Part shown: piece after piece, positions 30,301-64,000 of the stretch
Layout of the letters: every line of letters starts with the position of its first letter
How positions within the stretch are numbered: position 1 is the first letter of the stretch
NCBI RefSeq assembly: GCF_046119375.1
Contig: NW_027362761.1
Span: 663,958,001 to 664,022,000, forward strand
DNA: 64,000 nucleotides
Direction of reading: 5' to 3'
Origin: Phyllobates terribilis
Lineage: Eukaryota
Notes under the pieces: generated by a model
What the model was told of the DNA's origin: nothing
Seen by the model: only the letters and a program-made list of their open reading frames with translations
Database searches by the model: none
Translations under genes and position numbers: made by a program

Positions 30301-30309
30301 AGGTGTTTC

Positions 30310-37398: not shown

Positions 37399-37424
37399 TA
37401 CAGGTGATGCAGTGACCATATCCA

Positions 37425-40089: not shown

Positions 40090-40620
40090 TTATACATTTT
40101 TTTAAAAGTATTTTGTCTTGATAAAGCATAGATATGTGTTTTTCTATAATTTTCCTAATAGCTATAAATTGGGGATTGTAATTAGACACAAAGATAATGT
40201 TATCTAAGCTATGGGTTTCTTTGTTTTCTTTCTTTCAAAATATCCTGTATGGTGTATTATATTATTTGGTCTCTTGAGCATCCAATTATGGTATTTTCTA
40301 ATCTGTAATCTTTGATTAACCAACCTAGCTTCCTGTTGGAATCTAATATCTGATGTTGTATTCCTTTTTGTACTTATTAGTTCACCAATATGGATATTTT
40401 TAATAGTTTGTTCAGGGGAACATGAGGTTGCTAGTAAAATAGAATTGGTTGCTGAACTTTTTCTGTTAGGAATGGGAGAGTTCATTAGAGAAATGTCAAA
40501 AAATCTATTTGTGTTTCTTTAATGTTATAAGTGAATTTTAGTTTCAAGTCTTTATTATTGAAATATTCAACGAAATCAACTGCCATTTCTCTGGTGCCAT
40601 CCCTATCAGGTCATCTATAT
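40090..40620 (-). mobile_element. Penelope-like fragment
   Basis: Minus strand reads IIFVSNYNPQFIAIRKIIEKH, the RT-endonuclease linker motif also seen near 33500. Confidence 0.6.
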
Positions 40621-41752: not shown

Positions 41753-43252
41753 CAGTACAGACCAAAAGTTTGGACACACCTTCTCATTTAAAGATTTTTC
41801 TGCGTTTTCATGACTTTGAAAATTGTACATTCACACTGAAGGCATCAAAACTATGAATTAACACATGTGGAATTATATCGTTAACAAAAAAGTGTGAAAC
41901 AACTGAAAATATGGTGTGCCCTGTCAGGTTTAATAAGTGGGATTTTTTGCCTTATAAATGGGGTTGGGACCATCAGTTGTGTTGTGCAGAAGTCAGATGG
42001 ATACACAGCTGATAGTCCTACTGAATAGACTGGTAGCTGTTTTTTTCTTGCCATAATACAAATTCTAAGTAAAGAAAAACGAGTGGCCTTCGTTACTTTA
42101 AGAAATTAAGGTCAGTCAGTCCGAAAAAATTGGGCAAACTTTGAATGTGTCCCCAAGTGCAGTTGCAAAAACCATCAAGCGCTACAAAGAAACTGGCTCA
42201 CATGAGGACCGCCCCAGGAAAGGAAGACCAAGAGTCACCTCTGCTTCTGAGGATAAGTTTATCCGAGTCACCAGCCTCAGAAATCGCAGGTTAAAAGCAG
42301 CTCAGATTAGAGACCAGGTCAATGCCACACAGAGTTCTAGCAGCAGACACATCTCTACAACAACTGTTAAGAGGAGACCTTGTGCAGCAGGCCTTCATGG
42401 TAAAATAGCTGCTAGGAAACCACTGCTAAGGACAGGCAACAAGCAGAAGAAACTTGTTTGGGCTAAAGAACACAAGGAATGGATATTAGAACAGTGGAAA
42501 TCTGTGCTTTGGTCTGATGAGTCCAAATTTGAGATCTTTGGTTCCAACCACCGTGTCTTTGTGCGACGCAGAAAAGGTGAACGGATGGACTCTACATGCC
42601 TGGTTCCCACCGTGAAGCATAGAGGAGGAGGTGTGATGGTGTGGGGGTGCTTTGCTGGTGACACTGTTGGGGATTTATTCAAAATTGAAGGCATACTGAA
42701 CCAGCATGGCTACCTCAGTATCTTGCAGCGGCATGCTATTCCATCCGGTTTGCTTTTAGGTAGACCATCATTTATTTTTCAACAGGACAATGACCCCAAA
42801 CACACCTCCAGGCTGTGTAAGGGCTATTTGACCAAGAAGGAGAGTGATGGGGTGCTACGCCAGATGACCTGGCCTCCACAGTCACCAGATCTGAACCCAA
42901 TTGAGATGGTTTGGGGTGATCTGGACCGCAGAGTGAAGGCAAAAGGGCCAACAAGTGCTAAGCGTCTCTGGGAACTCCTTCAAGATTGTTGGAAGACCAT
43001 TTCCGGTGACTACCTCTTGAAGCTCATCAAGAGAAGGCCAAGAGTGTGCAAAGCAGTCATCAAAGCAAAAGGTGGCTACTTTGAAGAACCTAGAATATGA
43101 CATATTTTCAGTTGTTTCACACTTTTTTGTTAAGTATATAATTCCACATGTGTTAATTCATAGTTTTGATGCCTTCAGTGTCAATGTACAATTTTCATAG
43201 TCATGAAAAATCTTTAAATGAGAAGGTGTGTCCAAACTTTTGGTCTGTACTG
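41753..43252 (+). mobile_element. Tc1-like transposon with a long open DD34E transposase frame (42141-43100) but no usable start codon
   Basis: TA-flanked TIRs CAGTACAGACCAAAAGTTTGG. Motifs WSDESKF, QQDNDPKH and [11 protein letters not shown] are intact. Confidence 0.95.
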
Positions 43253-44559
43253 TATATCTATTTCCACTGGCATTATTAGCAGAGTGATGTGGGTATTTAC
43301 ATATACTGTGGAAGCCTGTTGTGTTTACTTATCTATATATATTCTTAGAATTGTGGTTTGGAGGATAAAAGCCAGCCCTAACACGGGCTGCTGAGATGAG
43401 TTACATAGCCATTCTGGGCTTTTTTTAAATGTTTTTAATTGTGTGATTTCCTTCATTGTTCAATAAAATTCTTTCTATTATTATGTTACTAATTTAATGG
43501 TGATCCTGACTATTTATATACATGCTTCTTTTCTTCCGTTACGCATTATGTTGTTTAGTGTGTAATCAGTGATCCCATAAGTATATTGGTACTTAGCTTT
43601 GCTTCTATAAACAGTGGAACCCCCCCCCCAAGTGACCCCATTTTGGAAACTAGACCCCTTAAGGAACTTATCTAGATGTATGGTGAGCACTCTCAACCCC
43701 TAAGTGTTTCACAAAAGTTTATAACGTCGAGCTGTGAAAAAAAAAATCACTTTTTTTCCATAAAAATGAACTTTTAGTCGCATTTTTTTTAATTTTCACA
43801 AGGGTAACAGGAGAAATTGCACCCCAAAAGTTGTTGTGCAGTTTCTCCTGAGTTACTCTGATACCCCATATGTGGGTAAAACCATTGTTTGGGTGCACAT
43901 CAGGGCTCAGAAGGGAAGGAATGATGTTTTGGAATGCAGACTTTGATGGAATGGTCTGTGGGCGTCATGTCGCGTTTGCAGAACCCTTAATGTGCCTAAG
44001 CAGTGGAAATGCCCAACAAGTGTCCCTTTTTGGAAACTAGACCTCCCAATAAATTTATCTAGATGTGTGGTGAGCGCCTGGAACCCCCAGGTGCTTCACA
44101 GAAAATTATAACGTTGACTTGTGCAAATAAAAAAAGTCAATTTTTTCCACAAAAATGTTATTTTAGCCAAACAAAAATTATTTTCACAAGGGTAATTGGA
44201 GAAAGTGGACCTCAAAATGTTGTCCAATTTCTCCTGAGTATGCTGACACCCCATATGTGGGAGAAACTACTGTTTGGGCACATGTCAAGGCTCGGAAGGG
44301 AAGGAGTGATGTTTTGAAATGCAGACTTTGATGGAATGATTTGCAGAACCCCTGATGTGCCTAAACAGTGGAAATGCCCAACAAGTGCCCCCTTTTTGGA
44401 ACTGATCTACTGTTTCCTGTATGGCATAGTGTAGTGGCATACATGAGTTGTGTAGTGTTCGTCAAATTGTCATACGTCAGTTGTGTAGTGTTCGTTAGGT
44501 TGCCATACGTCAGTTGTGTAAGTCAGAACTGAATTAAGTAGTCCATGGATGTGTGGTAC

Positions 44560-46140
44560 AGTCTGAAGCATTCTTTCATACACAGGCCAAGTTTGTCAGG
44601 GCAGGTGTCACATTGATAAATGTTGTCCTTGCATATTCCCCTTTTGTAACACACTCGGCACCTCTATTATGACTTAGTTTTTTTTCTGCTTTGAGGGATC
44701 TCTCCCAGGAAATGTTGGCATGGTACGATTTGAGGATTTTCAGTTCCAGAAATACTGGGGCCCGCTCCTTCCTGACTGCCAAATATCATGGCCTTGATCA
44801 CTACCTCCTGGAACTGAAGGTACGGCGAAGAAGTCTAGCCTGCACATCATGATAGTAGGAAAGAATAGTACATTGCCATCTGTACAATGTGCATGGCCAG
44901 CTTCTTGTACCACACCCTGGCCTTTCTAAATGCACTGTATGGCTGGAGGACTTGATTAGAGAGATCAACTCCCTCCATGTACTTGTTGTACCCATTACAC
45001 AGTCTGGTTTGACGACTTGTGTAGAGGAACCTCTTACAGTGCTGATGGTGCTGCCATCACCATGTATGGTGGTCAAGAGAAGGACATCCTTCTTGTACTT
45101 GACCACCAGTAGGTGGTCGCTACATTGGTCTCTGCTCTCACCCTTACTGAGCATCTGTCAATTAGCGTCTTTGGGAGGCCTCTCTGATTTTTAACAGTGT
45201 TGCAGGCTGCGGTACCTCACGCTGAGAGGGACTTGAAGAGTTGGGTGCTGGTATAAAAGTTATCCATGTAGAGGTGATATCCTTGATCCAGCAGTGGGTG
45301 CACCAAATCCCACACTACTTTCCCACTCACTCCCAGGACAGAGGGACATTCAAGGGGTGCAGTACACGAGTCCTTCCCTTCATAAACCCTAAACTTGTGG
45401 GTGTGCCCTGAGATACTCTCACAAAGTTGTAGAGCTTAATTCATTATCTGGCCCTCTTACTGGGCACATACACGTCAGCAAACTTGTTGTTGAACTGATC
45501 GATGACCGGCCGAACTTTGAAAAGACTATCAAAGTTGGGGTCATCTCATGCATTATCGTTGTAATGCAAGAACTTGTGGATGGCCTCAAAACGTGTCCGG
45601 GTCATGACCATTCAGAGCACCGGAGTGTTATACAAAATGTCAACACTCCAGTATTACCGAACTTCTGGCTTCTTCAGGATCCCTATGTGAAGGACCAGGC
45701 CTGAAAAATTCATAATTTATATTGCATTTACAAGAGTCCAGTTAGAAAGTGATGAGCGGTTTTGTGGCAAAAAATTTTGAGCATACAAATTAGATTGGTC
45801 CACCATGAGGTTTACAAAATCCTCAGAGAAAAAGACTTTGAATAAATCTCTTTCTGTGAGGCCGGTGGTGTCATACTTGATTCCTAATTGTGCCACAAAA
45901 TCAGGAATCAGTGGGTCATAATTTTCAGGGGGACGAGGTCCATACGGGGTCAGTAATGGGGGGCGCTGATTCATCTTCTATCCTAGAGCATCTTCGTGGC
46001 AGTTCAGCATCACCTGAGGAGGATGACAAGGAGTCAGAAAAATAAAGAAAGTTGGGATCCTCTCCCTCACTGTCAGTGTCGGAGGCAAGGAACACGTATG
46101 CCTTCTCCACTGAATAACGTTTTAGGGACTGGCGGGACTA
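44560..46140 (-). pseudogene. piggyBac (PGBD-type) transposase remnant
   Basis: Acidic N-terminus (ASDTDSEGEDP), FKVFFSEDFVNLMVDQSNLYAQ, YMDNFYTS, KYKKDVLLLTTIH, KPDCV and a C-terminal Cys-rich remnant; many frameshifts. Confidence 0.85.
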
Positions 46141-46959
46141 CATATTTTTTTATGTATGTGGTGTTTGTCAGTACTTTATTCAGTTGTGTGTGTAAGAGTG
46201 CTTGGTGTAAACGTCTTTGTTGCTTTTTTACTTAAAAAAAAAAAAAATCGGAGGTAGTGCAAGGAAGGGGGGGGTGAGTCAGTGAAAAAAAAAGTGTAAA
46301 ACAGCGAGCACGAGTGTGGATCAGTGATCTGCGTCACTGATCAATGCTCATCAGCTGCTGGATGTGCACACGGAAGTGGTGCAAAGGGCGGGGGAGAAAA
46401 GTGAACAGGGACAAAAAAAAGTCCTGGAAAACAGTGAGCACGGAGGTTGATCTGTTATTTGCGTCACTGATCAGCGCTTGGCTACTGCACAACACACAAG
46501 GAAAAAAACTGCCAAAAATCAAGCGATCAAGTACTGATCACCACTCAGTGGCAGAAAGGAGGGGTGGAGAGAGGGGGATTGGTCGCGGTGGCGCATTAAA
46601 TGTTAGGCATAATACGTATCTGGTCATTAAGGCTCAGGGCTCAGAGACATATTATTACGCCTCACGTCAAAAAGGGGTTAAACCAAGCACAGGCACCTGT
46701 TTCATTTTTGATGTGTCCAAACCATTCAGTACACCTTTCCATCTGCTTGCGGTTGATCTATCTCTGCACTTCTCTGGTTCCAAGTAAATCCTATCAAGAA
46801 AGGGGTAAGGGGAGAATCCACTGGTTCATAAATAAATATAAATAAAAAAAAACTAAAATGATATAATAGGAGACTTAATATTGTGTATTTTGTTACTAGT
46901 AAAAGTACTAAAGTTTAGCATAGACTACTGCATTAAATAATACATTTTATTTCTTTTGC

Positions 46960-49062
46960 GCCATCATATTCCTCAGCACTTCACATTTTAGAGGGAACTT
47001 GTACAGACAATAAAGACATTACACCTAACTCAACAGATACCAAAAGTTATGAGGGCCCTGCTCACAAGTTTACTATGAGGAAGTAGGCGAGACACGAAAG
47101 GTAAATGGTAAAGAGTGCGTGTATTGTATGGTTCAGCCATCAATAAAATAGCGTATTCCCATAATGCTGCATGAACCGATCACCAGCCAGTATGTCAGTA
47201 TGTGTACTGACACAGACACAGAGGGCTATTAAGTGCATGGAGAGTGTGTGAACAGATGCTACAAGGGTCCTGATTTAGAATAAAATTTTGTATGGGCAAA
47301 ACGTGGATAGTTAGAGAAATGACATGAGGTGAAAGGCCAGTCTTAAGAAATGCATTTTTAGGCCACACTTAAAACTGTTGGTATTGGAAATTTATCGAAT
47401 TGTCCTGGGTAGTGCATTCCGGAGAATTGGCGCAGCACGCTAGAAGTCTTGGAGACAGGAGAGGGTGGTTCGGATTATTGAGGATGTTAATTTTTGGTCA
47501 TTAGCAAAACGGAGGGCATGGGTAGGGTGGTAGACTGAGATCAGGGAGGAGATGTAGGGTGGTGCTGAACTGTGGCGTGCTTTGTGGGTGATGGTGATAA
47601 ATTTATATTGGACTTTGTAGAGGAGGGCCAACCAGTGCAATGACTGGCACAGGGTAGAGCCATTAGTGTAGTTGTTGGAAAGGAATATGATCCTGGCTGC
47701 TGCATTCAGTATTGATTGGAGTGGGGAGAATTTAGTAATAGTTAAGGAGATTTAGTAGAGAGTTGAAATAATCCAGACGAGAGTGAGTAATAGCAACAGT
47801 AAGAGTTTTTGCAGAGTCAAAGGTAAGAAAAGGTCAAATTCTAGAGCTGTTTGTGAGGTGTAGGTGAAATGAGCGAGCGAGTGATCTGAATCATATATGA
47901 CCCCATGACAGCGGGCATGTTACTAGAGAGTAATGGTGGAACCACGCACTGAAATAGCAATATCGAGCATAGGTAGATTAGTGAAGGGAGAAACACAAGG
48001 AGTTCAGTTTTTGACAGATTTAGTTTTAGATAGAGGGAAGACAAAATGTTAAAGACAGCGGAGAGACAATCACTCTTATTTTGTAGTAATTCAGGGGTGA
48101 TGTCAGGAGACTGTGTATAATTGGGCATCATCAACAAAGAGATGATACTGAAAACCGAATCTACTGATGGTTTGTTCAATAGGGGCAATATATAAGGAGA
48201 AAAGGAGGAGGCCTAGGACTGATCCTTGAGGAACCCCTATAGTAAGGGAAGAGGAGCCAGCAAAAGATACAGTGAAGGAGTGGTCAGAGAGGTACGATGA
48301 AAACCAAGAGAGAGCAATATCCTTGAGGCCGATAGAACAGAGCATAGTGAGGAGGAGCTGGTGATACACAGTATCGAATGCTGCAGAGAGATCCATTAGA
48401 ACCAGCAGGTAGTAGTGACCATTAGATTTAGCTGTTAGTAGATCATTACAGACTTTAGTAAGGGCAGTTTCATTAGAGTGTAAGGAGCGGAAACCAGATT
48501 GTAAAAGGTCAGGAAGAGAGTTATCTGACAGATAGCAGATTAGACGGGAGTGGACCAAGCGTTCCAGGAAATAGTGATGAAGGGAAGATTACAGACAGAC
48601 CTTTTAAGTAATGGGTGTATGCTGGCATATTTAAATGAGGAAAAGCTACCAGATGCAAGAAAGATAATATTTTAGTTAGGTGAGTGGGTGGTAATAGCCA
48701 GGAAAAGGGACTGAAGAACATGTGAGTGCATAGGGTCCCTGGTGCATGTAGTAGTGTGAGAGATTGACTTCTTCTTCCGTGCCTGGTTAAAATACCGAAT
48801 GTGAGCTAGATGTAATGTGGGATAGAGGAGAATGCAAGATATTAGGGGATTGGGAGAAAATTTCCTGTCTGATATGGCCAGTTTTTTCCTTTTAAATTGG
48901 GCAGATCGTCAGCGCTGAGCTCGGTGGTGTGGGCCTGCACTTGGATTGAGGAGAGAATGAAAAGTGTCAGTCGTTTAGGATTGTTGGATAAGTTTGTGAT
49001 AAGGGTGTTGAAGTAGATTTGTTTGGAGAGGTGAAGGGTAGAGTTGTATGTTTAAAGCATAA
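46960..49062 (-). mobile_element. L2/CR1-group LINE, 3' part (RT and 3' end), decayed
   Basis: [43 protein letters not shown] and LQDF(S)..RAAPILRNALP. Left boundary approximate. Confidence 0.88.
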
Positions 49063-49488
49063 TGTCACAATGCTGTTGTCTGAAAACCCGAGACCAGGGG
49101 CTCCTTCCCGGTCCCGAACACTAAGAGCGCCCTGTCTATCCCCAGGTTACTTAAGATGGCAATGATGCTGGGGCCATGCACCTTGCTGTTCTCCTGAGTC
49201 AGCCCTTATTTGTTCCCCTTAGTCAGCCCTTATTTGTTCCCTTCCCCACCCAAGGAAGTGGGGAGGAACAGTGTTTGTAAAAACACCAACCAGACAAACA
49301 AGGAAGGACGTACAGGGGTAAAATAAAATACCAAACACAAAATATGCACTCACAGCCAACAGAGGGAGGCACCGAAGGGATGAGAAAGGTAAACCAAAAC
49401 AGAAGAGGATAGGACTATGCACACAACCAAAACACCAAGCAACAGTCACAGATCGACTCGTGCACTCACACTGCAGACAGCGACATAC
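49063..49488. mobile_element. Unrelated LTR-like sequence (TGTCAC start) inserted in the L2 and interrupted by Gypsy B
   Basis: Abrupt break in L2 homology at TGTCACAATG; local 23-bp tandem duplication at about 49197-49241. The other end is outside the window. Confidence 0.55.
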
Positions 49489-50124
49489 TGTTAGAACCCT
49501 CTTGTTAGTTTTTCTATTTTTGCTGGTCACATGACTTTTTGCCTATATAATCCAGCTCCGCCCTCCTGGCCTTGCTGGACTTCAGTGTTACTTTTACTCT
49601 TAAGCTAGCCAGGTGCCTTGTACCTTACTCTGTAGTTTGCTTGGTCTTTTGACCACTAGTACTTCTGTTTGTTTGTCTTTGCTCTGCTACAATTTCTGCT
49701 AGGAGGTGTCCAACTATATCCCAGTCCTTAGTTCTTGTAGGGACCCCTCCCTTATATCTATAGGTCTGCGTTCAGACTAGCCGAGGACTTAGGAGGGTCT
49801 GTTCACAAGGATCAGGTCCCCCGCTGCATCGTAGGGAATCAGCTTAGTCCTATTGTAGGGACAGTTTTCCTTAGTGTTTGTAGCAGTTCATAACAGTAAG
49901 TCCAGCCCAAAAATAAAACACTCTAAGGGAAAAAAAATAGAAATCCTGATTTCAGCATGGTGTCGGTTCAGGAGTTGGCTCAACGCCTGCAGGGACTGTC
50001 TTTGGAGGTGGCCGAGCTCCAGCAACACGTGAGTAGCTGTCCTGGAGCGCATTTTGTCGAACCGAAGGTGTTAGAACCTTGCTCTTAGGTTTTTTCCTTT
50101 GCTGGTCACATGACCTTGTTGGCC

Positions 50125-50163
50125 TATTTAATCCTGCTCCGCCCTTCTGGCTTTGCTGGACTT
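50125..50163 (+). promoter_or_regulatory. LTR TATA box and predicted transcription start (GCTGGACTT); equivalent sites at 49544/49574 and 2234/2204 (minus strand)
   Basis: TATTTAA or TATATA lies 30 nt upstream of the PBS-complementary 9-mer in all three LTR subfamilies. The start site itself is inferred. Confidence 0.7.
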
Positions 50164-50536
50164 CATTGTATATCTACTTTCTAGCTAGCCTGTGCTCTGT
50201 GTCTTGCTCTGTTAGTTTGCTTGGTCTACGGACCTCTATGTTCTATATATTTTGTTTGTTCGTCTGTCTGCTACTATTTCTGTTAGGAGGTGTCCCATAT
50301 TCCTCCCAGTCCTTAGTACTTGTAGGGATTCCTTCCCCACATCTATAGGTCTCCGTACAGACTAGCTTAGGACTTTAGCAGGTCTGATCGCAGGATCAGG
50401 TCCCCTGTTACATCGTAGGGATTAAGCTGAGTTCTATCGCAGGGACAGATCTCCTCTCTTTCCTTAGCTCTGGTAGCAGAACATAACAGTAAGTCCAGCC
50501 TGCAAATTCTCTAAGGAAAGATTTTTCTGTTCCATC

Positions 50537-53500
50537 ATGGTGTCGGTTCAGGATTTGGCTCATCGCCTGCAGGGACTCTCTCTGGAGGTGGCCGAGCTCC
50601 GTCAGCACGTGAGTAACTGTCCTGGAGCACATTTCTTGGAGCCTAAGGTATGTTTGCCGGATTTATTTTTTGGTGAACACCGAGAATTTTTTTCATTTAA
50701 AAATGCTTGCTTATTGTATTTTCGTTTGAGACCCAAGTCCTCTGGGGATGAATCCCAGAGCGTAGGGTTCATAATGTCACTTTTGCGCAAAGAGCCTCAG
50801 GAGTGGGCCTTTTCTTTGCAACCTAGTGATACATGCTTCAGATCAGTGGATAGTTTTTTTTCTGCTTTGGGCCTATTATATGATGATCCTGACCGTGTCG
50901 CATCAGCTGAGACTGAGTTGAGACGTTTAAAACAAGGATCAGGTAATGTGGAAAAATATTGTACTCATTTCCGTCGGTGGTCTACTCAAACAGGGTGGAA
51001 CGATTCTGCTCTGAAAAGTCTATTTCTTGCTGGGCTCAGTGAAAGGGTTAAAGACCTGCTAATTGCTTATCCTACACCTGAAGATTTGCAACAGGCTATG
51101 CAATTAGCTATACGGGTGGATAGAAGACTGCGTGCAAGGGTTAATGAGAGCAAATCCTCTGCTATGTCAGTTTCTGGTTATGAGAATGTGTGTACTAACA
51201 GTGGTGAACCGATGGAGATTGGATCGGTGGCACCTCGCTCTCAAGAAAAAGACCGTCGATTTTTTGAAGGCTTGTGTTTCTATTGCGGAAAATCTGGTCA
51301 TTTGATAAAAGCCTGTGAGCTTCGTATGAAGAAAGAAAAAAAAATGGTCAGTCACGCCCGTATTGCCTGTTTAAATTCCAAGGGTATATTTTTAGCTGCT
51401 TCCACGATTGCTCAGGAAAAAGTAATGGAATTTCGGGTGTTTGTTGATTGCGGGTCTACTCTGAATGTAATTGATGGGGGATTCTTGGAAAGACTCAATT
51501 TAAAACCCGAACCTTTGTCATCCCCCATTGCTGTGGTTTCTGTGGATGGTTCCCCTTTGAAGAATATTACTCTCAAGGTCAGTGAATTTCCTCTCACTAT
51601 TAATGGTGTTCACCATGAGAAATTGGATTTGGTAGTGTTGAATAACTTGCCTTCTCCAGTAATATTGGGATTGCCCTGGTTAAAATTTCACAATCCTGTA
51701 CTGGATTGGTCTACCAGTGAAATTAAATCCTGGAGCCATAAATGTTATGACAAGTGTTGTAACGGGCGTATTGCAGCTTTGGATAGGGGAGAATTGCCTG
51801 TTCCTATTCAGGATTTTTGGAGAGTTTTTTCTGAGAAGGAATCGCAGGTTTTGCCTCCCCATAGAGACTATGATTGCTCTATTGAATTTGTCCCTGGAGC
51901 GACTCTTCCTAAAAGTCGTTTATTTAACCTTACTATTCCTGAGAGGAAGGCTTTGGAGGAATACATACAGACAAGTTTGGCCGCCGGTCACATTAGGCCC
52001 TCTAAGTCTCCTGTGGCGGTTGGATTTTTTTTTGTAAAAAAAAAAGGACGGCGGTTTACGTCCTTGTCTGGATTTTCGTGAGATTAACAAAATTACTGTG
52101 CGCAATCCTTACCCACTGCCATTGATTCCTGATCTGTTTAACCAGTTAATGGGGGCCAAGTGGTTCTCTAAAATTGACCTTAAGGGGGCATACAATCTGT
52201 TGCGCATGAAGGAGGGTGACGAATGGAAGACTGCTTTTAACACTCCTGTGGGTCATTTTGAGAATCTGGTTATGCCTTTTGGTCTTACCAATGCTCCTGC
52301 ATTTTTTCAGAATCTTATTAATGACATCCTTGGGCCTTTGATCGGCAAAAATGTGGTTGTGTATTTGGATGACATTTTGATTTATTCGCCGGATCTGGAG
52401 TCTCATTGGCGGAGCGTACGTGAGGTATTACAGTTATTAATGGACAATTCGCTTTTTGCTAAGCTGGAGAAATGTGAATTCGCTGTACAGAGAATTAGTT
52501 TTTTGGGTTACATTATCTACAGCGAAGGTTTTGAGATGGACCCGGTTAAAGTTCAAGCTATACAGGAATGGCCTAGGCCTATTGGTTTGAAATCGATACA
52601 GAGGTTTTTAGGTTTCGCCAATTATTACAGAAAATTCATAAAAAATTTTTCTAGTATTGTCAAACCTCTGACCGATCTCACCAGGAAAGGTGCTGATGCG
52701 GTTCAGTGGTCTGCTGAGGCCATTGAAGCTTTTGTGTATCTCAAGGAGAGGTTCACCTCTGCTCCCATCCTTATGCAGCCTGATGTGACTAAGCCGTTTT
52801 TGGTTGAGGTTGATGCTTCCTCTGTGGGGGTTGGAGCAGTATTGTCTCAGGATAATGGGGATGGATTACATCCCTGTGCCTTTTTTTCAAAAAATTTTTC
52901 GGAGACTGAACTGAATTACGATATTGGTAATCGGGAATTATTGGCTATTAAGCTCGCGTTTGAACACTGGCGCCACTTCTTGGAAGGTGCGGAATTTCCC
53001 GTTCAGGTTCTTACGGATCATAAAAATCTGATATATCTTGATGCTGCCAAGCGCCTGAATGCCCGTCAGGCTAGGTGGGCACTGTTTTTCTCGCTGTTTA
53101 ATTTCTCCGTTACTTACATCCCTGGTACTAAGAATGTTAAGGCGGATGCCTTGTCTCGCAGTTTTTCTCCCATAGTCGGTGCTGAGAAAGAGGAGAACAT
53201 TTTACAAGAAGGTGTTGTGATAGCTGCTTTAGACTCCGTTTTGGAAGATGAGATTCTTAAAGCACAGGAGAATGCCCCTTCTAACACTCCTCATGGGAGG
53301 TTGTTTGTGCCTGGGACCTTTAGGAGAGATTTGTTTGTTGAGTGTCACGAATCTCGGTTGGCAGGTCATCCCGGAATCTCTGAGACCAAGAGACTGGTGG
53401 GTCGCAGTTTTTGGTGGCCTGGATGGCAGAAGGAAGTCATTAAGTGGGTGCGCCAATGTACTATATGTGCTAGATCTAAGTCCTCACATACTCCTGCTGC

Positions 53501-54605
53501 GGGGTTGCTTTGTCCTTTGGAGGTCCCCAGTGCTCCTTGGACACATTTGGCTATGGACTTTATAACTGACCTTCCCCCCTCTGAGGGTTTTACTGTCATC
53601 TGGGTGGTCGTGGACCGTTTTAGCAAGATGTGTCACTTGGTTCCCTTCGTCAAACTGCCCTGCGCTAAAACTCTCGCTAAGGCCTTTGTCAAGGAAATTG
53701 TCAGACTTCATGGCGTTCCTACTGACATTGTTTCTGATAGGGGTCCTCAGTTCGTGGCTCTTTTTTGGCGTGCCTTTTGTGACAGGTTGGGAATTCATTT
53801 GTCGTTTTCGTCCGGATATCATCCTGAATCTAATGGCCAGACAGAAAGGAAAAACCAGGATGTTGAGCAGTTCTTGCGTTGTTTTGTGGCAGACAATCAA
53901 GAGGGGTGGTCTGAGTTTCTGCCACTTGCTGAATTTGCTCTGAACAATCATACATCTTCTTCTGCTGGTTGTTCGCCTTTTTTTTGTTGTTCTGGGAGAC
54001 ATCCGTCGTTTGGGTCGTTCTCCAAGTTGGGATCTGCCGTGCCTGAGGAGGAGAATTTTTCCGGTGATTTGGAGAGAGTTTGGACGGATGTGCGTGGTAA
54101 TCTTCAGGAGGCCAACAGAAAATCTAAAGACTACTTTGATAGGAAACGACAGGAGGTTTTGTTCGCTGTTGGTGACATGGTTTGGTTGTCCTCTAGGAAT
54201 CTGCGGTTGAGGATTCCTTCTAAGAAATTGGGTCCCAAGTTTGTAGGGCCCTTTAAGGTGCTTCAAGTTGTCAACCAATCTGCTGTTAGGTTGGAGGTTC
54301 CTACCTCCTGGAGAATTAATCCTGTATTTCATGTCTCTCTGTTAAAAAAAGCTGTTGTGTCGGATGGTGACGCCTCTGCCTCTGTTCCTCCGGTGGTGGA
54401 GGACGGGGAATATGAAATTTCTCGCATCCTTGACTCTAGACGGTATAGAGGTAGTTTACAGTATCTTGTGGCCTGGAAAGGTTTCGGACCCGAGGATAAC
54501 TCTTGGGTGAGGTCAGATGATGTTTCCGCGTCCAGACTTATCAGAGCGTTTCACAGGAGATTTCCTGATAAGCCTGGTCCTAGGGGATCCGGAGGATCCT
54601 CTTAG
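50537..54605 (+). CDS. Gag-Pol polyprotein of element A (gag, CCHC, protease, RT, RNase H, integrase, chromodomain) with a single +1 frameshift at about 52036-52045
   Basis: ORFs 50537-52081 and 52098-54605. Motifs [65 protein letters not shown] and [33 protein letters not shown]. Confidence 0.93.
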
Positions 54606-55042
54606 AAGGGGGGGTACTGTTAGAACCTTGCTCTTAGGTTTTTTCCTTTGCTGGTCACATGAGCTTGTTGGCCTATTTAATCCTGCTCCGCCCTTCTGGC
54701 TTTGCTGGACTTCATTGTATATCTACTTTCTAGCTAGCCTGTGCTCTGTGTCTTGCTCTGTTAGTTTGCTTGGTCTACGGACCTCTATGTTCTATATATT
54801 TTGTTTGTTCGTCTGTCTGCTACTATTTCTGTTAGGAGGTGTCCCATATTCCTCCCAGTCCTTAGTACTTGTAGGGATTCCTTCCCCACATCTATAGGTC
54901 TCCGTACAGACTAGCTTAGGACTTTAGCAGGTCTGATCGCAGGATCAGGTCCCCTGTTACATCGTAGGGATTAAGCTGAGTTCTATCGCAGGGACAGATC
55001 TCCTCTCTTTCCTTAGCTCTGGTAGCAGAACATAACAGAAGG

Positions 55043-58000
55043 TAGGACTTCCAGATTTTTTTTGTATGGTAAACGGCAAGATTTTTTTTCCTTTAGAAAC
55101 GCTTGTTTATTATATTTTCGTTTAAGACCCAGATCCTCGGGAGTGAATCACAGCGCATTGGGTTTATAATGTCACTTTTGCGCAAAGAACCACAGGGATG
55201 GGCCTTTTCTCTACAACCTAATGATCCGTGTTTTAGATCTGTGGAAGATTTTTTTTCTGCTATGGGGTTGTTGTATGATGATCCTGATCGATTCTCATCT
55301 GCTGAAACTGAATTAAGATGTTTGAAGCAGGGATCAGGTGATGTGGAAAATTATTGTACATACTTCAGAAGATGGTCAGCTGAAGTGGAATGGAATGACT
55401 CAGCATTAAAATGTTTGTTTCTTGATGGTCTAGGTGAAAGGGTTAAGTATCTGTTGATTGCCTTCCCAAAACCTGGAACCTTGCAGGAGGCAATGCAATT
55501 AGCCATACGTGTGGACAGGAGACTGCGTGCTAGGAGTAATGAAGAGAGATTTACTGCTATGGCAGCTCCTAGTTTTTAGAGGGTCTGTTCGGAGGGTGGA
55601 GAACCGATGGAGATTGGGGCGATGTCACCCCACTCTCAGGAAAAAGACCGCAGGTTTGCTAAAGGATTGTGTTTTTATTGCGGTAAATCTGACCACTTTA
55701 TTAAGAACTGTGTGCTTCGTTTGAACAAAGAAAAAAAAAAAAGAGGTCAGTTATGCCCGCATAGCGTGTTTAAACTCAAAAGGAGTATTTCTTTCTGGAA
55801 GCACCTCATTCCAGGAGGAGTTGATTGAATTTCGGGTATTTGTGGATTGTGGTTCCACACTCAATGTGATTGATGAGGATTTTTTGGAAAAATTTAAATT
55901 AGAATCCAAACTTTTGTCATCTCCTATTTCTGTGGTTGCTGTTGATGGCTCTCCCTTGAAAGGTATTACTCACAAGGTTTTTGAATTTCCCCTCACCATT
56001 AATGGTATCCACCAAGAGAATTTGGATTTGGCGGTATTAAATAATTTGCCTGCTCCAGTGGTTTTGGGGTTACCTTGGTTAAAATTGCACAATCCTGTAC
56101 TGGACTGGTCTACCAATGAAATTAAGTCTTGGAGTCCTAAGTGTTATGATAGATGTTGTAACGGTCGCATTGCTGCTGTGGAAAGAGGGGAATTACCTGT
56201 ACCTATTCAGGATTTTTGGAGGGTTTTTTCTGAGGAGGAGTCGCAAGTTTTGCCTCCTCATAGGGACTATGATTGTACTATTGAGTTTGTCCCTAGAGCA
56301 ACTCTTCCCAAGAGTCGCTTATTTAATCTTACTATCCCTGAGAGAAAGGCCTTGGAGGAATACATACAGACAAGCTTGGCCGCCGGTCACATTAGACCTT
56401 CTAAGTCACCTGTGGCTGTTGGATTTTTTTTTGTAAAAAAAAAGGACGGCGGTTTACGTCCATGTCTGGACTTTCGCGAAATTAATAAAATTACAGTACG
56501 CAATTCCTACCCACTGCCATTAATTCCTGACTTGTTCAACCAGTTAGTGGGGGCCAAGTGGTTCTCTAAGATTGATCTCCGGGGGGCATACAATTTGTTA
56601 CGTATGAAGGAAGGTGATGAGTGGAAAACTGCTTTTAACACTCCAGTGGGTCATTTTGAGAATCTGGTGATGCCCTTTGGTCTTACCAACGCACCAGCGT
56701 TTTTTCAGAACCTTATTAATGACATCCTAAGACCGTTGATCGGTAAGAATGTGGTGGTGTATTTGGATAACATTTTGATTTTTGCGCCGGATCTGGAGTC
56801 TTATTGGCAGAGCGTACGTGAGGTGTTGCAGTTGTTAAGCGACAATTCGCTTTTTGCTAAGTTGGAGAAATGTGAGTTTGCTGTGCAGAGAATTAGTTTT
56901 TTGGGCTACATTATCTCCAGCGAGGGCTTTGAGATCGACCCAGTGAAGGTTCAGGCGGTGCAGGAATGGCCAAGGCCTATTGGTTTGAAACCAATACAGA
57001 GATTTTTGGGTTTCGCCAATTATTACCGAAAATTCATTAAGAATTTTTCTATAATTGTTAAGCCGCTGACCGATCTCACCAGGAAAGGTGCGAATACGGT
57101 TCAGTGGACTACTGAGGCCATTGAAGCTTTTGTGTATCTCAAGGAGAGGTTCAGTTCTGCCCCCATCCTTATGCAGCCTGATGAGACCAAGCCTTTTTTG
57201 GTCGAGGTTGATGCGTCTTCGGTGGGGGTCGGTGCTGTTTTGTCTCAGGAAAACAAGGATGGAGTACATCCCTGTGCTTTTATTTCAAAAAAATTTTCTG
57301 AGACCGAACTTAATTACGATGTCGGTAATCGGGAATTGCTGGCGATTAAACTCGCATTTGAACATTGGCGTCATCTCTTGGAAGGTGCTAAATTTCCCAT
57401 TCAGGTTTTTACTGATCATAAGAATCTGATCTATCTTGATGCTGCCAAGCGCTTGAATGCCTGTCAAGCTAGGTGGGCACTTTTTTTTCCGCGGTTTAAT
57501 TTTTCTGTTACTTACATCCCGGGTACCAAGAATGTAAAAGCTGATGCTATATCTCGCAGTTTTTCTCCCATGGTTGGTACCGAGGAGGAGGAGAGCATTT
57601 TACAGGAAGGTGTTGTGATAGCAGCATTGGATCCGTTTTGGAAGATGGGATTCTGAAAGCCCAGGAGGATGCCCCATCTAACACTCCCCATAGGAGGTTG
57701 TTTGTGCCTAGGAACTTTAGGAGAGAGTTGTTTGTGGAGTGTCATGAGTCTCGGTTGGCAGGTCATCCAGGAATTTCGGAGACTAAGAGACTTGTAGGTC
57801 GCAGTTTTTGGTGGCCTGGGTGGCAGAAGGAAGTCATTAAGTGGGTGCTTCAATGTACTGTGTGTGCTAGATCTAAGTCTTCACATGCTCCTGCTGCGGG
57901 GTTGCTTTGCCCTCTGGAGGTTCCTAGTGCTCCTTGGACGCATCTTGCTATGGATTTTATTACTGACCTTCCTGCCTCTGAGGGTTTCACTGTTATCTGG

Positions 58001-58986
58001 GTGGTCGTGGACCGTTTTAGCAAGATGTGTCACTTGGTTCCCTTCATCAAACTACCCTGCGGCAGGACACTCGCTAAGGCTTTTGTTAAAGAAATTGTCA
58101 GGCTCCATGGCGTTCCTACCGACATTGTTTCCGATAGGGGACCTCAGTTCGTGGCTCGTTTTTGGCGTGCCTTTTGTGACAGGTTGGGAGTCCATTTGTC
58201 ATTTTCGTCTGGTTATCATCTTGAGTCTAATGGATAGACAGAAAGAAAGAACCAGGATGTTGACAATCAAGAGGGGTGGTCTGAGTTTCTGCCACTGGCT
58301 GAATTTGCTCTTAACAACCATACATCCTCTTTTGCTGGGTGTTCTCCTTTTTTTTGTTGTACTGGGAGACATCCGTCGTTTGGGTCATTCTCCAAATTGG
58401 TATTGGCTGTGCCGGAGGAGGAGAATTTTTCCGGTGATTTGGAGAGAGTTTGGACTGATGTACGTAGTAACCTCCAAGAGGCTAACAAAAAATCGAAGAG
58501 GTACTTTGACAGGAAACGTCAAGAGGTTTTGTTTACTGTTGGTGACATGGTTTGGTTGTCCTCTAGGAATCTGCAGTTGAGGATTCCTTCTAAGATATTG
58601 GGCCCGAAGTTTGTAGGTCCTTTTAAGGTGCTTCAGGTAGTTAACCAATCTGCTGTTAGGTTGGAGGTGCCTACTCCTGGAAGATTAATCCGGTGTTTCA
58701 TGTTTCCTTATTGAAAAAAGCTGATGTTTCTGATAGGGACGCCACTGTCTCTGTTCCTCCGGTGGAGGAAGACGGTGAATATGAAATTTCTCGCATTCTT
58801 AATTCTAGATGGCATAGAGGGAGATTGCAGTATCTCGTCGCTTGGAAAGGTTTCGGTCCCGAGGATAACTCCTAGGTAAGGGCGGATGATGTCTCTGCTC
58901 CTAGACTTGTCGGAGTGTTTCACAGGAGGTTTCCTGATAGACCTGGGCCTGGATGATCCGGGGGATCCTCATAGAAGAGGGAGTAC
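55043..58986 (+). pseudogene. gag-pol of B unit 1 (portion after element A), multiply disrupted
   Basis: TAG at 55577-55579, A12 frameshift near 55740, YLDN instead of YLDD, frameshift near 57635, stop at 58235, 27-bp deletion near 58262. Confidence 0.93.
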
Positions 58987-59459
58987 TGTTAGAACTCTCC
59001 TGTTAGTTTTTTCTATTTTTGCTGGTCACATGACTTTTTGCCTATATAATCCAGCTCTGCCCTCCTGGCCTTGCTGGACTTCAGTGTTACTTTTACTCTT
59101 AAGCTAGCCAGGTGTCTTGTACCTTACTCTGTAGTTTGCTTGGTCTTTTGACCACTAGTACTTCTGTTTGTTTGTTTGTCTTTGCTCTGCTACAATTTCT
59201 GCTAGGAGGTGTCCAACTATATCCCAGTCCTTAGTTCTTGTAGGGACCCCTCCCTTATATCTATAGGTCTGCGTTCAGACTAGCCGAGGACTTAGGAGGG
59301 TCTGTTCACAAGGATCAGGTCCCCCGCTGCATCGTAGGGAATCAGCTTAGTCCTATTGTAGGGACAGTTTTCCTTAGTGTTTGTAGCAGTTCATAACAGT
59401 AAGTCCAGCCCAAAAATAAAACACTCTAAGGGAAAAAAAATAGAAATCCTGATTTCAGC

Positions 59460-62400
59460 ATGGTGTCAGTTCAGGAGTTGGCTCAACGCCTGCAGGGACT
59501 GTCTTTGGAGGTGGCCGAGCTCCAGCAACACGTGAGTAGCTGTCCTGGAGCGCATTTTGTCGAACCGAAGGTAGGACTTCCAGATTTTTTTTGTATGGTA
59601 AACGGCAAGATTTTTTTTCCTTTAGAAACGCTTGTTTATTATATTTTCGTTTAAGACCCAGATCCTCGGGAATGAATCACAGCGCATTGGGTTTATAATG
59701 TCACTTTTGCGCAAAGAACCACAGGGATGGGCCTTTTCTCTACAACCTAATGATCCGTGTTTTAGATCTGTGGAAGATTTTTTTTCTGCTATGGGGTTGT
59801 TGTATGATGATCCTGATCGATTCTCATCTGCTGAAACTGAATTAAGATGTTTGAAGCAGGGATCAGGTGATGTGGAAAATTATTGTACATACTTCAGAAG
59901 ATGGTTGGCTGAAGTGGAATGGAATGACTCAGCATTAAAATGTTTGTTTCTTGATGGTCTAGGTGAAAGGGTTAAGTATCTGTTGATTGCCTTCCCAAAA
60001 CCTGGAACCTTGCAGGAGGCAATGCAATTAGCCATACGTGTGGACAGGAGACTGCGTGCTAGGAGTAATGAAGAGAGATTTACTGCTATGGCAGCTCCTA
60101 GTTTTTAGAGGGTCTGTTCGGAGGGTGGAGAACCGATGGAGATTGAGGCGATGTCACCCCACTCTCAGGAAAAAGACCGCAGGTTTGCTAAAGGATTGTG
60201 TTTTTATTGCGGTAAATCTGACCACTTTATTAAGAACTGTGTGCTTCGTTTGAACAAAGAAAAAAAAAAAAGAGGTCAGTTATGCCCGCATAGCGTGTTT
60301 AAACTCAAAAGGAGTATTTCTTTCTGGAAGCACCTCATTCCAGGAGGAGTTGATTGAATTTCGGGTATTTGTGGATTGTGGTTCCACACTCATTGTGATT
60401 GATGAGGGTTTTTTGGAAAAATTTAAATTAGAATCCAAACTTTTGTCATCTCCTATTTCTGTGGTTGCTGTTGATGGCTCTCCCTTGAAAGGTATTACTC
60501 ACAAGGTTTTTGAATTTCCCCTCACCATTAATGGTATCCACCAAGAGAATTTGGATTTGACGGTATTAAATAATTTGCCTGCTCCAGTGGTTTTGGGGTT
60601 ACCTTGGTTAAAATTGCACAATCCTGTACTGGACTGGTCTACCAATGAAATTAAGTCTTGGAGTCCTAAGTGTTATGATAGATGTTGTAACGGTCGCATT
60701 GCTGCTGTGGAAAGAGGGGAATTACCTGTACCTATTCAGGATTTTTGGAGGGTTTTTTCTGAGGAGGAGTCGCAAGTTTTGCCTCCTCATAGGGACTATG
60801 ATTGTACTATTGAGTTTGTCCCTAGAGCAACTCTTCCCAAGAGTCGCTTATTTAATCTTACTATCCCTGAGAGAAAGGCCTTGGAGGAATACATACAGAC
60901 AAGCTTGGCCGCCGGTCACATTAGACCTTCTAAGTCACCTGTGGCTGTTGGATTTTTTTTTGTAAAAAAAAAGGACGGCGGTTTACGTCCATGTCTGGAC
61001 TTTCGCGAAATTAATAAAATTACAGTACGCAATTCCTACCCACTGCCATTAATTCCTGACTTGTTCAACCAGTTAGTGGGGGCCAAGTGGTTCTCTAAGA
61101 TTGATCTCCGGGGGGCATACAATTTGTTACATATGAAGGAAGGTGATGAGTGGAAAACTGCTTTTAACACTCCAGTGGGTCATTTTGAGAATCTGGTGAT
61201 GCCCTTTGGTCTTACCAACGCACCAGCGTTTTTTCAGAACCTTATTAATGACATCCTAAGACCGTTGATCGGTAAGAATGTGGTGGTGTATTTGGATAAC
61301 ATTTTGATTTTTGCGCCGGATCTGGAGTCTTATTGGCAGAGCGTACGTGAGGTGTTGCAGTTGTTAAGCGACAATTCGCTTTTTGCTAAGTTGGAGAAAT
61401 GTGAGTTTGCTGTGCAGAGAATTAGTTTTTTGGGCTACATTATCTCCAGCGAGGGCTTTGAGATCGACCCGGTGAAGGTTCAGGCGGTGCAGGAATGGCC
61501 AAGGCCTATTGGTTTGAAACCAATACAGAGATTTTTGGGTTTCGCCAATTATTACCGAAAATTCATTAAGAATTTTTCTATAATTGTTAAGCCGCTGACC
61601 GATCTCACCAGGAAAGGTGCGAATACGGTTCAGTGGACTACTGAGGCCATTGAAGCTTTTGTGTATCTCAAGGAGAGGTTCAGTTCTGCCCCCATCCTTA
61701 TGCAGCCTGATGAGACCAAGCCTTTTTTGGTCGAGGTTGATGCGTCTTCGGTGGGGGTCGGTGCTGTTTTGTCTCAGGAAAACAAGGATAGAGTACATCC
61801 CTGTGCTTTTTTTTCAAAAAAATTTTCTGAGACCGAACTTAATTACGATGTCGGTAATCGGGAATTGCTGGCGATTAAACTCGCATTTGAACATTGGCCG
61901 TCATCTCTTGGAAGGTGCTAAATTTCCCATTCAGGTTTTTACTGATCATAAGAATCTGATCTATCTTGATGCTGCCAAGCGCTTGAATGCCTGTCAAGCT
62001 AGGTGGGCACTTTTTTTTCCGCGGTTTAATTTTTCTGTTACTTACATCCCGGGTACCAAGAATGTAAAAGCTGATGCTATATCTCGCAGTTTTTCTCCCA
62101 TGGTTGGTACCGAGGAGGAGGAGAGCATTTTACAGGAAGGTGTTGTGATAGCAGCATTGGATCCGTTTTGGAAGATGGGATTCTGAAAGCCCAGGAGGAT
62201 GCCCCATCTAACACTCCCCATAGGAGGTTGTTTGTGCCTAGGAACTTTAGGAGAGAGTTGTTTGTGGAGTGTCATGAGTCTCGGTTGGCAGGTCATCCAG
62301 GAATTTCGGAGACTAAGAGACTTGTAGGTCGCAGTTTTTGGTGGCCTGGGTGGCAGAAGGAAGTCATTAAGTGGGTGCTTCAATGTACTGTGTGTGCTAG

Positions 62401-63486
62401 ATCTAAGTCTTCACATGCTCCTGCTGCGGGGTTGCTTTGCCCTCTGGAGGTTCCTAGTGCTCCTTGGACGCATCTTGCTATGGATTTTATTACTGACCTT
62501 CCTGCCTCTGAGGGTTTCAGTGTTATCTGGGTGGTCGTGGACCGTTTTAGCAAGATGTGTCACTTGGTTCCCTTCATCAAACTACCCTGCGGCAGGACAC
62601 TCGCTAAGGCTTTTGTTAAAGAAATTGTCAGGCTCCATGGCGTTCCTACCAACATTGTTTCCGATAGGGGACCTCAGTTCGTGGCTCGTTTTTGGCGTGC
62701 CTTTTGTGACAGGTTGGGAGTCCATTTGTCATTTTCGTCTGGTTATCATCTTGAGTCTAATGGATAGACAGAAAGAAAGAACCAGGATGTTGACAATCAA
62801 GAGGGGTGGTCTGAGTTTCTGCCACTGGCTGAATTTGCTCTTAACAACCATACATCCTCTTTTGCTGGGTGTTCTCCTTTTTTTTGTTGTACTGGGAGAC
62901 ATCCGTCGTTTGGGTCATTCTCCAAATTGGTATTGGCTGTGCCGGAGGAGGAGAATTTTTCCGGTGATTTGGAGAGAGTTTGGACTGATGTACGTAGTAA
63001 CCTCCAAGAGGCTAACAAAAAATCGAAGAGGTACTTTGACAGGAAACGTCAAGAGGTTTTGTTTACTGTTGGTGACATGGTTTGGTTGTCCTCTAGGAAT
63101 CTGCGGTTGAGGATTCCTTCTAAGATATTGGGCCCGAAGTTTGTAGGTCCTTTTAAGGTGCTTCAGGTAGTTAACCAATCTGCTGTTAGGTTGGAGGTGC
63201 CTACTCCTGGAAGATTAATCCGGTGTTTCATGTTTCCTTATTGAAAAAAGCTGATGTTTCTGATAGGGACGCCACTGTGTCTGTTCCTCTGGCGGAGGAA
63301 GACGGTGAATATGAAATTTCTCGCATTCTTAATTGTAGATGGCATAGAGGGAGATTGCAGTATCTCGTCGCTTGGAAAGGTTTCGGTCCCGAGGATAACT
63401 CCTGGGTAAGGGCGGATGATGTCTCTGCTCCTAGACTTGTCGGAGTGTTTCACAGGAGGTTTCCTGATAGACCTGGGCCTGGATGA
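59460..63486 (+). pseudogene. gag-pol of B unit 2, with the same lesions as unit 1 plus a 1-bp insertion near 61898
   Basis: Near-identical to unit 1 at an offset of about 4530 bp. Confidence 0.93.
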
Positions 63487-64000
63487 TCCGGGGGATCCTC
63501 ATAGAAGAGGGAGTACTGTTAGAACTCTCCTGTTAGTTTTTTCTATTTTTGCTGGTCACATGACTTTTTGCCTATATAATCCAGCTCTGCCCTCCTGGCC
63601 TTGCTGGACTTCAGTGTTACTTTTACTCTTAAGCTAGCCAGGTGCCTTGTACCTTACTCTGTAGTTTGCTTGGTCTTTTGACCACTAGTACTTCTGTTTG
63701 TTTGTTTGTCTTTGCTCTGCTACAATTTCTGCTAGGAGGTGTCCAACTATATCCCAGTCCTTAGTTCTTGTAGGGACCCCTCCCTTATATCTATAGGTCT
63801 GCGTTCAGACTAGCCGAGGACTTAGGAGGGTCTGTTCACAAGGATCAGGTCCCCCGCTGCATCGTAGGGAATCAGCTTAGTCCTATTGTAGGGACAGTTT
63901 TCCTTAGTGTTTGTAGCAGTTCATAACAGTAAGTCCAGCCCAAAAATAAAACACTCTAAGGGAAAAAAAATAGAAATCCTGATTTCAGCATGGTGTCGGT

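What the first reader, a model, noticed from the sequence alone, without database searches (positions are those of the whole stretch)
49489..64000. Retrotransposon concatemer: LTR-int-LTR-int-LTR-int with shared LTRs, period 4530 bp
Seen: the LTRs at 58987 and 63517 are each preceded by a PPT and followed by the PBS and gag, so each serves as both 3' and 5' LTR. Units 1 and 2 differ at only about 20 sites I could spot, yet share every inactivating lesion (gag frameshift, TAG, A12 run, YLDN, integrase stop, 27-bp deletion). The outermost LTR (49489) differs from the two internal ones by a few substitutions and 2 indels. Inference: a dead copy was amplified at the DNA level, by unequal LTR-LTR crossover or from a circular intermediate, giving an incipient LTR-element satellite inside a gene intron.
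Basis: partly seen in the sequence, partly recalled or inferred. Interest (0 to 1): 0.7.

Follow-up and report, generated by a model that had tools for sequence, protein, structure and literature searches.

The report
Triple retrotransposon tandem from unequal crossover
Three broken copies of a jumping gene sit head-to-tail at one insertion site and share their end repeats, likely made after insertion by unequal recombination; about 1.5% of this family's right-hand end repeats in the genome are shared the same way, so this is an ordinary example of a known structure.

Summary
The tandem is real in the assembly and closes just past the window: 4 LTRs and 3 internal units inside one CATAC target-site duplication, 19.0 kb. 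The element is a chromodomain-bearing Ty3/gypsy retrotransposon with a Tf1/sushi-type self-priming signature. Unit 1 also holds a nested, related 4,969-bp element that the finding does not mention.

Copying came after insertion. The 27-bp deletion occurs 3 times in 10.57 Gb, all here. The two inner LTRs are mosaics: derived alleles of the last LTR on the left, of the first LTR on the right, as unequal LTR crossover predicts.

It is not rare: 330 of 22,650 PPT-preceded LTRs of this group are shared. In 33 other closed arrays, units are younger than their insertions (0.29% vs 0.99%) and inner LTRs show the same polarity, with switch points spread along the LTR. The largest sampled array has 4 units, so 'incipient satellite' is unsupported; no host gene was found. 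Read data were uninformative, so a misassembled third unit remains possible. Known kind; the genome-wide mosaic test is the useful part.

The parts
49484..49488 (+). 5' target-site duplication CATAC; its partner lies beyond the window, right after LTR4 (L001:5463-5467, window-equivalent 68463-68467)
   Evidence: the same 5-mer follows LTR4
49489..49895 (+). LTR1, the original 5' LTR (407 bp, TG...CA)
49896..58986 (+). Internal unit 1 (gag-pro-RT-RNaseH-integrase-chromodomain, broken), interrupted by nested element B
50064..50068 (+). TSD GAAGG of nested element B (partner at 55038-55042)
50069..55037 (+). Nested related Ty3/gypsy element B, 4969 bp; LTRs 50069-50488 and 54618-55037 differ at 1 of 420 sites; two long reading frames with gag, protease, RT, RNase H, integrase, SH3_Tf2-1 and chromodomain
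58973..58983 (+). Polypurine tract before LTR2 (repeated at 63503-63513 before LTR3)
   Evidence: sequence
58987..59398 (+). LTR2, shared inner LTR; mosaic (LTR4-type left, LTR1-type right); TATA at LTR position 57; 9-nt complement of the PBS at positions 87-95
59399..63516 (+). Internal unit 2, starting with the non-tRNA-like PBS; 11 private substitutions and a private 1-bp insertion near 61898
62779..62804 (+). Junction of the 27-bp integrase deletion, found only in the 3 units of this array (also 58249-58274 and window-equivalent 67305-67330)
   Evidence: 3 exact matches in 10.57 Gb, control 0
63517..63928 (+). LTR3, shared inner LTR, same mosaic as LTR2 (1 substitution apart)
63929..64000 (+). 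Start of internal unit 3. It continues past the window to window-equivalent 68042 (L001:929-5042) and is followed by LTR4, the original 3' LTR (420 bp, 68043-68462, L001:5043-5462), and the 3' CATAC

Best explanation
Three damaged copies of one Ty3/gypsy retrotransposon lie head-to-tail between a single target-site duplication, and they likely arose after insertion by two rounds of unequal homologous recombination at this locus. Shown: one insertion (one TSD pair), lesions private to the locus and present in all units, inner LTRs that carry last-LTR alleles on the left and first-LTR alleles on the right. Inferred step 1: after the single element had aged, its 3' LTR misaligned with the 5' LTR on the sister chromatid or homologue; a crossover between LTR positions 72 and 329 gave a dimer with a hybrid inner LTR (reciprocal product: a solo LTR). 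Inferred step 2, soon after: the dimer misaligned by one unit and crossed over inside the internal region, probably between 61790 and 62765, which copied the same hybrid LTR and gave the trimer. Inferred step 3: element B integrated into unit 1's gag after step 1. The array has no evident function; it is a passive recombination product.
For: One TSD pair, none between units. The 27-bp deletion junction occurs 3 times in the genome, all here. Against 9 outgroup LTRs, derived alleles at columns 10 and 72 are shared by LTR2-4, and those at column 329 and the 9-bp deletion by LTR1-3. Outer LTRs differ by 4 substitutions and 4 indels in 406 bp (0.99%); units differ by 0.46-0.51%. Unit 2 shares a derived site with unit 3 at 61790 and with unit 1 at 62765 and 63199. 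Genome-wide, in 33 other TSD-closed arrays: outer-LTR divergence 137/13,904 versus inter-unit 370/125,960; outer larger in 23 of 33, smaller in 9, tie 1 (Wilcoxon p=1.3e-4). 20 sites derived and shared with the 3' LTR lie at 21-284 (mean 147), 20 shared with the 5' LTR at 77-420 (mean 302), Mann-Whitney p=2e-5; both fit a uniformly placed switch (KS p=0.55, 0.28). Trimer L148+ has a middle unit matching unit 3 at all 9 left sites and unit 1 at all 7 right sites.
Against: No spanning reads or usable depth. Step 2 rests on 3 of 4 shared-derived sites; 63293 is discordant and needs a CpG back-mutation in unit 1. Column 10 was not polarised by the second outgroup set. The 40 genome-wide sites come from only 14 arrays and are not independent; only 2 of these arrays have both kinds of site (both in the expected order). 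9 of 33 arrays have units more divergent than their outer LTRs. Of 8 multi-unit arrays examined, L142+ and L154+ show interleaved patterns, not a clean single crossover, and three have too few sites. A re-integrated circle predicts the same sequence.
Confidence: 0.75

Rival explanations
1. A one-LTR DNA circle excised from this element by intrachromatid LTR recombination, possibly copied by rolling circle, recombined back into the sister copy at the same locus.
For: The circle's LTR is the same 3'-left/5'-right hybrid (established knowledge of LTR recombination). LTR2 and LTR3 share one switch interval and the three units are nearly star-like (7, 11, 7 private substitutions, only 4 shared-derived), as one burst would give.
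Against: Shared-derived sites between unit pairs and the clean middle-unit mosaic in L148+ and the aabb pattern in L139+ favour stepwise exchange. A free circle has thousands of near-identical targets (2312 candidates), yet all units carry this locus's own lesion.
Confidence: 0.1
2. cDNA route: the element's own transcript was reverse-transcribed in trans and the cDNA recombined with the resident copy, as for Tf1/Tf2 or Ty5. Such cDNA has U3 from the 3' LTR and U5 from the 5' LTR.
For: In this array both 3'-LTR alleles (10, 72) lie upstream of the predicted transcript start at 87. Integrase-independent tandem formation is shown for Tf1, the same self-priming group (PMC11042837, passages).
Against: The units carry this dead copy's private deletion, so the cDNA would have to come from and return to the same copy among thousands. 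Genome-wide 13 of 20 3'-shared sites lie downstream of the predicted start, and L088 has a 5'-shared allele at 77, upstream of its start at 92. Within-array divergence (0.29% pooled) is below the median nearest other-locus divergence of 1.04% among 29 sampled arrays. The 3' end of R is unknown, so a switch anywhere inside a long R is not excluded.
Confidence: 0.05
3. A real dimer, inflated to a trimer by an assembler jumping between two haplotypes; or, less likely, the whole tandem is an artefact.
For: A haplotype jump inside a dimer would also give a middle unit that is unit-3-like on the left and unit-1-like on the right. Reads could not test it. One sampled array has units identical at 4128 of 4128 sites (L076).
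Against: Three distinct sequences with 7, 11 and 7 private substitutions, 24 of 30 variable sites being transitions, cannot come from two haplotypes of a single unit or from sequencing error. Element B sits in unit 1 only. LTR2 has its own private substitution.
Confidence: 0.08
4. The tandem was inserted as such, from a read-through tandem transcript or concatenated cDNA.
For: A single TSD pair fits; proposed as an open alternative in PMC11899658.
Against: It predicts identical LTRs at insertion, so inner LTRs could not share derived alleles with one outer LTR on the left and the other on the right, and units would be as old as the outer LTRs, not about half as divergent.
Confidence: 0.02

Closest known systems
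Tandem LTR-retrotransposon structures with shared internal LTRs in plants (Morales-Diaz et al. 2025, PMC11899658)
   Same: Alternating LTR and internal regions, one 5-bp TSD pair, gypsy elements, frequent (266 candidates in a rice pangenome).
   Different: Animal genome; that paper left open whether tandems are inserted as such or made later by recombination, whereas the polarised inner LTRs here point to post-insertion recombination.
HERV-K(HML-2) tandem proviral arrays, 7p22.1 and 12 other loci (bioRxiv 10.64898/2026.09.22.753638)
   Same: Vertebrate germ line, shared LTRs, 2-6 copies, explained by unequal recombination between misaligned LTRs, members differ in lesions.
   Different: A retrovirus with env and few loci; here an env-less chromodomain retrotransposon with about 330 junctions in one assembly, and no population data.
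Tf1/Tf2 tandems from integrase-independent cDNA insertion in S. pombe (PMC11042837)
   Same: Same self-priming group; tandem elements separated by one LTR.
   Different: There a cDNA from another copy joins a resident element and often gives hybrids; here all units descend from the resident copy.
TE dimers as substrates for satellite DNA in Drosophila (McGurk and Barbash, 10.1101/158386)
   Same: Ectopic LTR recombination gives tandems with shared LTRs that can expand by unequal exchange.
   Different: No large expansion seen here; the largest sampled array has 4 units.
Vertebrate Tf1/sushi (V-clade) chromoviruses such as sushi-ichi
   Same: gag-PR-RT-RH-IN-chromodomain order, SH3_Tf2-1 domain, 5-bp TSD, PBS complementary to the LTR.
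   Different: No tree with named members was built, so the clade is assigned from features only.

Membership tests
Tandem LTR retrotransposon with shared internal LTR | Alternating LTR and internal regions, starting and ending with an LTR | tested here: met
   4 LTRs, 3 internal regions
Tandem LTR retrotransposon with shared internal LTR | One TSD pair around the array, none between units | tested here: met
   CATAC at both ends; inner LTRs abut PPT and PBS
Tandem LTR retrotransposon with shared internal LTR | High identity between units | tested here: met
   0.46-0.51% divergence
Tandem LTR retrotransposon with shared internal LTR | Confirmed by spanning long reads | tested here: inconclusive
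   Only short assembled contigs were available and the family swamped them
Tandem LTR retrotransposon with shared internal LTR | Copy-number polymorphism among individuals | not testable with these tools
   One assembly only
Ty3/gypsy chromovirus | Domain order gag, protease, RT, RNase H, integrase | tested here: met
   Pfam on element B and on unit 1 (protease, RT, RNase H); units are 83% identical to B throughout
Ty3/gypsy chromovirus | Chromodomain at the integrase C-terminus | tested here: met
   PF00385 E=4.4e-11 in element B; the array units align over the same region but were not scanned there
Tf1/sushi group | Self-priming: PBS complementary to the 5' end of the transcript | tested here: met
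   9-nt complement at LTR position 87, 30 nt after TATA at 57, in both subfamilies and in 8 of 9 other arrays checked; transcript start itself not mapped; feature described in PMC6317226
Tf1/sushi group | RT phylogeny groups with sushi-ichi and Tf1 | not tested
   No tree with named references was built
Retrotransposon-derived satellite DNA | Long array of many units | tested here: not met
   3 units here; at most 4 in the 34 closed arrays examined; 230 of 330 junctions were not listed
Double insertion or nested insertion at one site | TSD copy or two full LTRs at the junction | tested here: not met
   Junctions have one LTR and no TSD; only element B is a true nested insertion

The most novel reading that the evidence does not exclude
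This 10.6-Gb genome holds some 300 datable fossil records of germ-line unequal crossover between LTRs, and their hybrid inner LTRs settle the question left open in 2025: shared-LTR tandems are mostly made after insertion by local recombination with switch points spread across the LTR, and a dimer expands further several times more readily than a single element first duplicates (9 of 89 arrays versus about 1.3% of elements).
Probability: 0.6. Interest if true: 0.5.

Novelty: new member of a known kind. Interest (0 to 1): 0.3.

Why it matters
The locus itself is ordinary. The useful result is a test: polarising the differences between the outer LTRs shows which one each part of the inner LTR came from, and so separates 'inserted as a tandem' from 'duplicated later', which PMC11899658 left open. 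With about 330 junctions in one assembly the test can be run at scale, giving crossover positions, the delay between insertion and duplication, and the ratio of duplications to solo-LTR deletions in a very large animal genome. It also warns that LTR finders which pair neighbouring LTRs will misdate such arrays, because the inner LTR is a hybrid.

Tried and rejected
Reads for an assembly check: no RNA holder on record and only assembled short contigs; laying 4 DNA runs on unit 2 was swamped by the family and showed nothing locus-specific. Laying 4 possible RNA runs on 30000-49488 listed no GT..AG joint among the 15 of 19 joints shown; this is no evidence against a gene.

Host gene: 245 unmasked stop-free frames of 38 aa or more gave only Tc1-type DDE and RT hits; 18 longer ORFs gave only mobile-element domains. 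Exons that are short, masked (28,466 of 49,488 bases), lack a Pfam match or lie outside the window would be missed.

The first junction count (560) was rejected: 13 of 30 sampled hits had no integrase end upstream. The tighter pattern (330) was used; 16 of the 17 sampled hits with that motif had it.

Of 60 single-junction places fetched (of 80 listed), 31 lacked an outer LTR within 10 kb, 2 had no TSD and 3 were segmental duplicates; all 36 were dropped, leaving 24, plus 9 of 9 multi-junction arrays.

Rejected: independent neighbouring insertions (no internal TSD); a non-autonomous subfamily carrying the lesions (deletion private); a fixed switch at the U3/R boundary (13 of 20 sites beyond it).

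Earlier scan findings: none near, none for the first words, 8 shown and none relevant. Paper searches listed no paper that I saw applying the polarised inner-LTR test or reporting amphibian tandems; subscription journals and the bioRxiv supplements are not covered.
Full report
1. Observation. Self-comparison of the window shows a 4,438-bp repeat at 99.5% identity (55034-59470 vs 59563-64000) and an 83%-identical related element at 50069-55037. LTRs start at 49489, 58987 and 63517; the last two follow a polypurine tract and precede the PBS. A search of the window's own genome (10.57 Gb; likely an amphibian from size and repeat content, an untested guess) found a fourth LTR at window-equivalent 68043. 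It ends at 68462 and is followed by CATAC, the 5-mer that precedes LTR1. The array is TSD-LTR1-unit1-LTR2-unit2-LTR3-unit3-LTR4-TSD, 18,974 bp. Spacings are 9498, 4530 and 4526 bp; the first includes nested element B, which has its own GAAGG duplication and LTRs 1 site apart in 420.

2. What the element is. Element B gives Pfam hits for gag, aspartyl protease, RT, RNase H, integrase, SH3_Tf2-1 and chromodomain in Ty3/gypsy order; unit 1's longest frame gives protease, RT and RNase H. The PBS is complementary over 9 nt to LTR position 87, 30 nt after the TATA box, the self-priming arrangement described for the Tf1/sushi group (PMC6317226, passages). The group is abundant: 56,825 LTR-like matches (control 107), 22,576 followed by the PBS and 24,069 preceded by the PPT end.

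3. Copying followed insertion. The 27-bp integrase deletion junction matches 3 times in the genome, once per unit; among the 40 best-scored family matches all others are at most 94% identical over the full stretch. Units differ by 0.46-0.51%, outer LTRs by 0.99% plus 4 indels. Units 1, 2 and 3 carry 7, 11 and 7 private substitutions; 24 of 30 variable sites are transitions.

4. The inner LTRs are hybrids. Sites where LTR1 stands apart lie in columns 10-182, sites where LTR4 stands apart in 269-391. Against 9 outgroup LTRs, columns 10 and 72 are derived and shared by LTR2-4, while column 329 and a 9-bp deletion are derived and shared by LTR1-3. A second outgroup set left column 10 unpolarised and agreed on the other three. 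Star-like ageing of four once-identical LTRs cannot give this; a crossover between the 3' LTR and the 5' LTR does. The switch lies between columns 72 and 329.

5. Second step. Unit 2 shares a derived site with unit 3 at 61790 and with unit 1 at 62765 and 63199, the order expected if a dimer misaligned by one unit and crossed over between 61790 and 62765. Site 63293 disagrees unless unit 1 back-mutated at a CpG. This step is weakly supported here; it is clear in trimer L148+ (9 left sites with unit 3, 7 right sites with unit 1, none private), partly visible in L144+, and not clean in L142+ or L154+. Element B is in unit 1 only, so it came after the first duplication (inference).

6. How common. 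A loose junction pattern gave 560 hits, but 13 of 30 sampled had no integrase end upstream. The tight pattern gives 330 shared LTRs among 22,650 PPT-preceded LTRs, 1.5%; it misses this array, whose PPT differs. The first 100 listed fall at 89 places, 9 with two or three junctions, so about 1.3% of elements are tandems and about 10% of tandems have three or more units (rough: some places are segmental duplicates or not tandems). I fetched 60 of the 80 single places and all 9 multiple ones; 24 and 9 were closed by one TSD pair after dropping 36. In these 33, outer LTRs differ by 137/13,904 (0.99%) and first unit pairs by 370/125,960 (0.29%); outer exceeds inner in 23, is lower in 9, ties in 1. 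A higher mutation rate in LTRs could contribute. Derived sites shared with the 3' LTR (20) lie left of those shared with the 5' LTR (20), p=2e-5, and both fit a uniformly placed switch; they come from 14 arrays and are not independent. The largest array has 4 units.

7. Rivals. A circle excised and re-integrated at the same locus leaves the same sequence (0.10). The cDNA route fits this array's two U3 alleles but not the private deletion, nor the genome-wide spread of switch points, though the end of R is unknown (0.05). A dimer inflated by a haplotype jump cannot be excluded without reads (0.08); one search was uninformative. Insertion as a ready-made tandem is contradicted (0.02).

8. Surroundings. 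The right flank is the pol region of an older minus-strand gypsy element (64% identity to B), and an RT fragment lies at 48106-48588. No host exon was found, so the intron claim is unverified.

9. Literature. PMC11899658 (parts 1-4 of 6 read: whole main text and start of references; supplements not opened) reports such tandems as common in plants and leaves the mechanism open. bioRxiv 10.64898/2026.09.22.753638 (passages and one results section) reports HERV-K arrays of up to six copies and invokes unequal recombination; its supplements are closed and may hold an inner-LTR analysis. 10.1101/158386 (passages) and PMC11042837 (passages) give the Drosophila and Tf1 cases. Searches listed nothing I saw applying this polarised test; one search was seen as a listing only.

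10. Verdict. Real in the assembly, mechanistically well explained, one of hundreds in this genome and of a known kind. No absolute dates are given because no rate was calibrated; in relative terms the copying happened at about half the insertion's age. Interest 0.3, mostly for the genome-wide test.

Noticed in passing
G000 genome-wide: LTRs with neither PBS nor PPT end number about 10,600 (56,718 - 22,576 - 24,069 + 560), an upper bound on solo LTRs: under 0.5 per full element, and about 30 per shared-LTR junction, far from the 1:1 of purely reciprocal exchange.
   Followed up: partly
L148+ (G000:C2:653271910-653291909): Textbook trimer whose middle unit matches unit 3 at all 9 left sites and unit 1 at all 7 right sites, switch between internal positions 1364 and 1624.
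   Followed up: yes
L088, L120, L125: Old insertions duplicated very recently: outer LTRs 3.0%, 2.4% and 1.2% apart, units 0.19%, 0.07% and 0.05% apart.
   Followed up: partly
L119, L146+, L152+: Tandems of internally deleted copies (internal regions 573, 2377 and 2966 bp), the first resembling a TRIM-like short tandem.
   Followed up: no
L007, L008, L010, L011 (C2321) and L012 (C14): The same insertion with the same 3' flank recurs at least four times on a 141-kb contig and once on C14: a large segmental or tandem repeat carrying the element.
   Followed up: no
L100/L101; L129/L130/L131; L134/L135: Tandem arrays that were themselves copied with their flanks, 0.4-4 Mb apart: segmental duplication or uncollapsed haplotypes.
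   Followed up: no
window 1-2295, minus strand, continuing into L003: A further related element (about 83-86% identity to the array units) spans the window's left edge.
   Followed up: no
G000 genome-wide: About 1% of 5' LTRs are preceded by GTAC without a polypurine tract, roughly 2.5-3 times the 1/256 expected at equal base frequencies; possibly a target-site preference.
   Followed up: no
window 35757-43257: Tc1-type transposon pieces (DDE_3, HTH_Tnp_Tc3_2 at 42102-43097) in inverted arrangement around a 29-bp minisatellite of 35 copies at 37421-38489.
   Followed up: no
window 7632-8279, minus strand: BED zinc finger frame, probably a hAT-type transposon.
   Followed up: no
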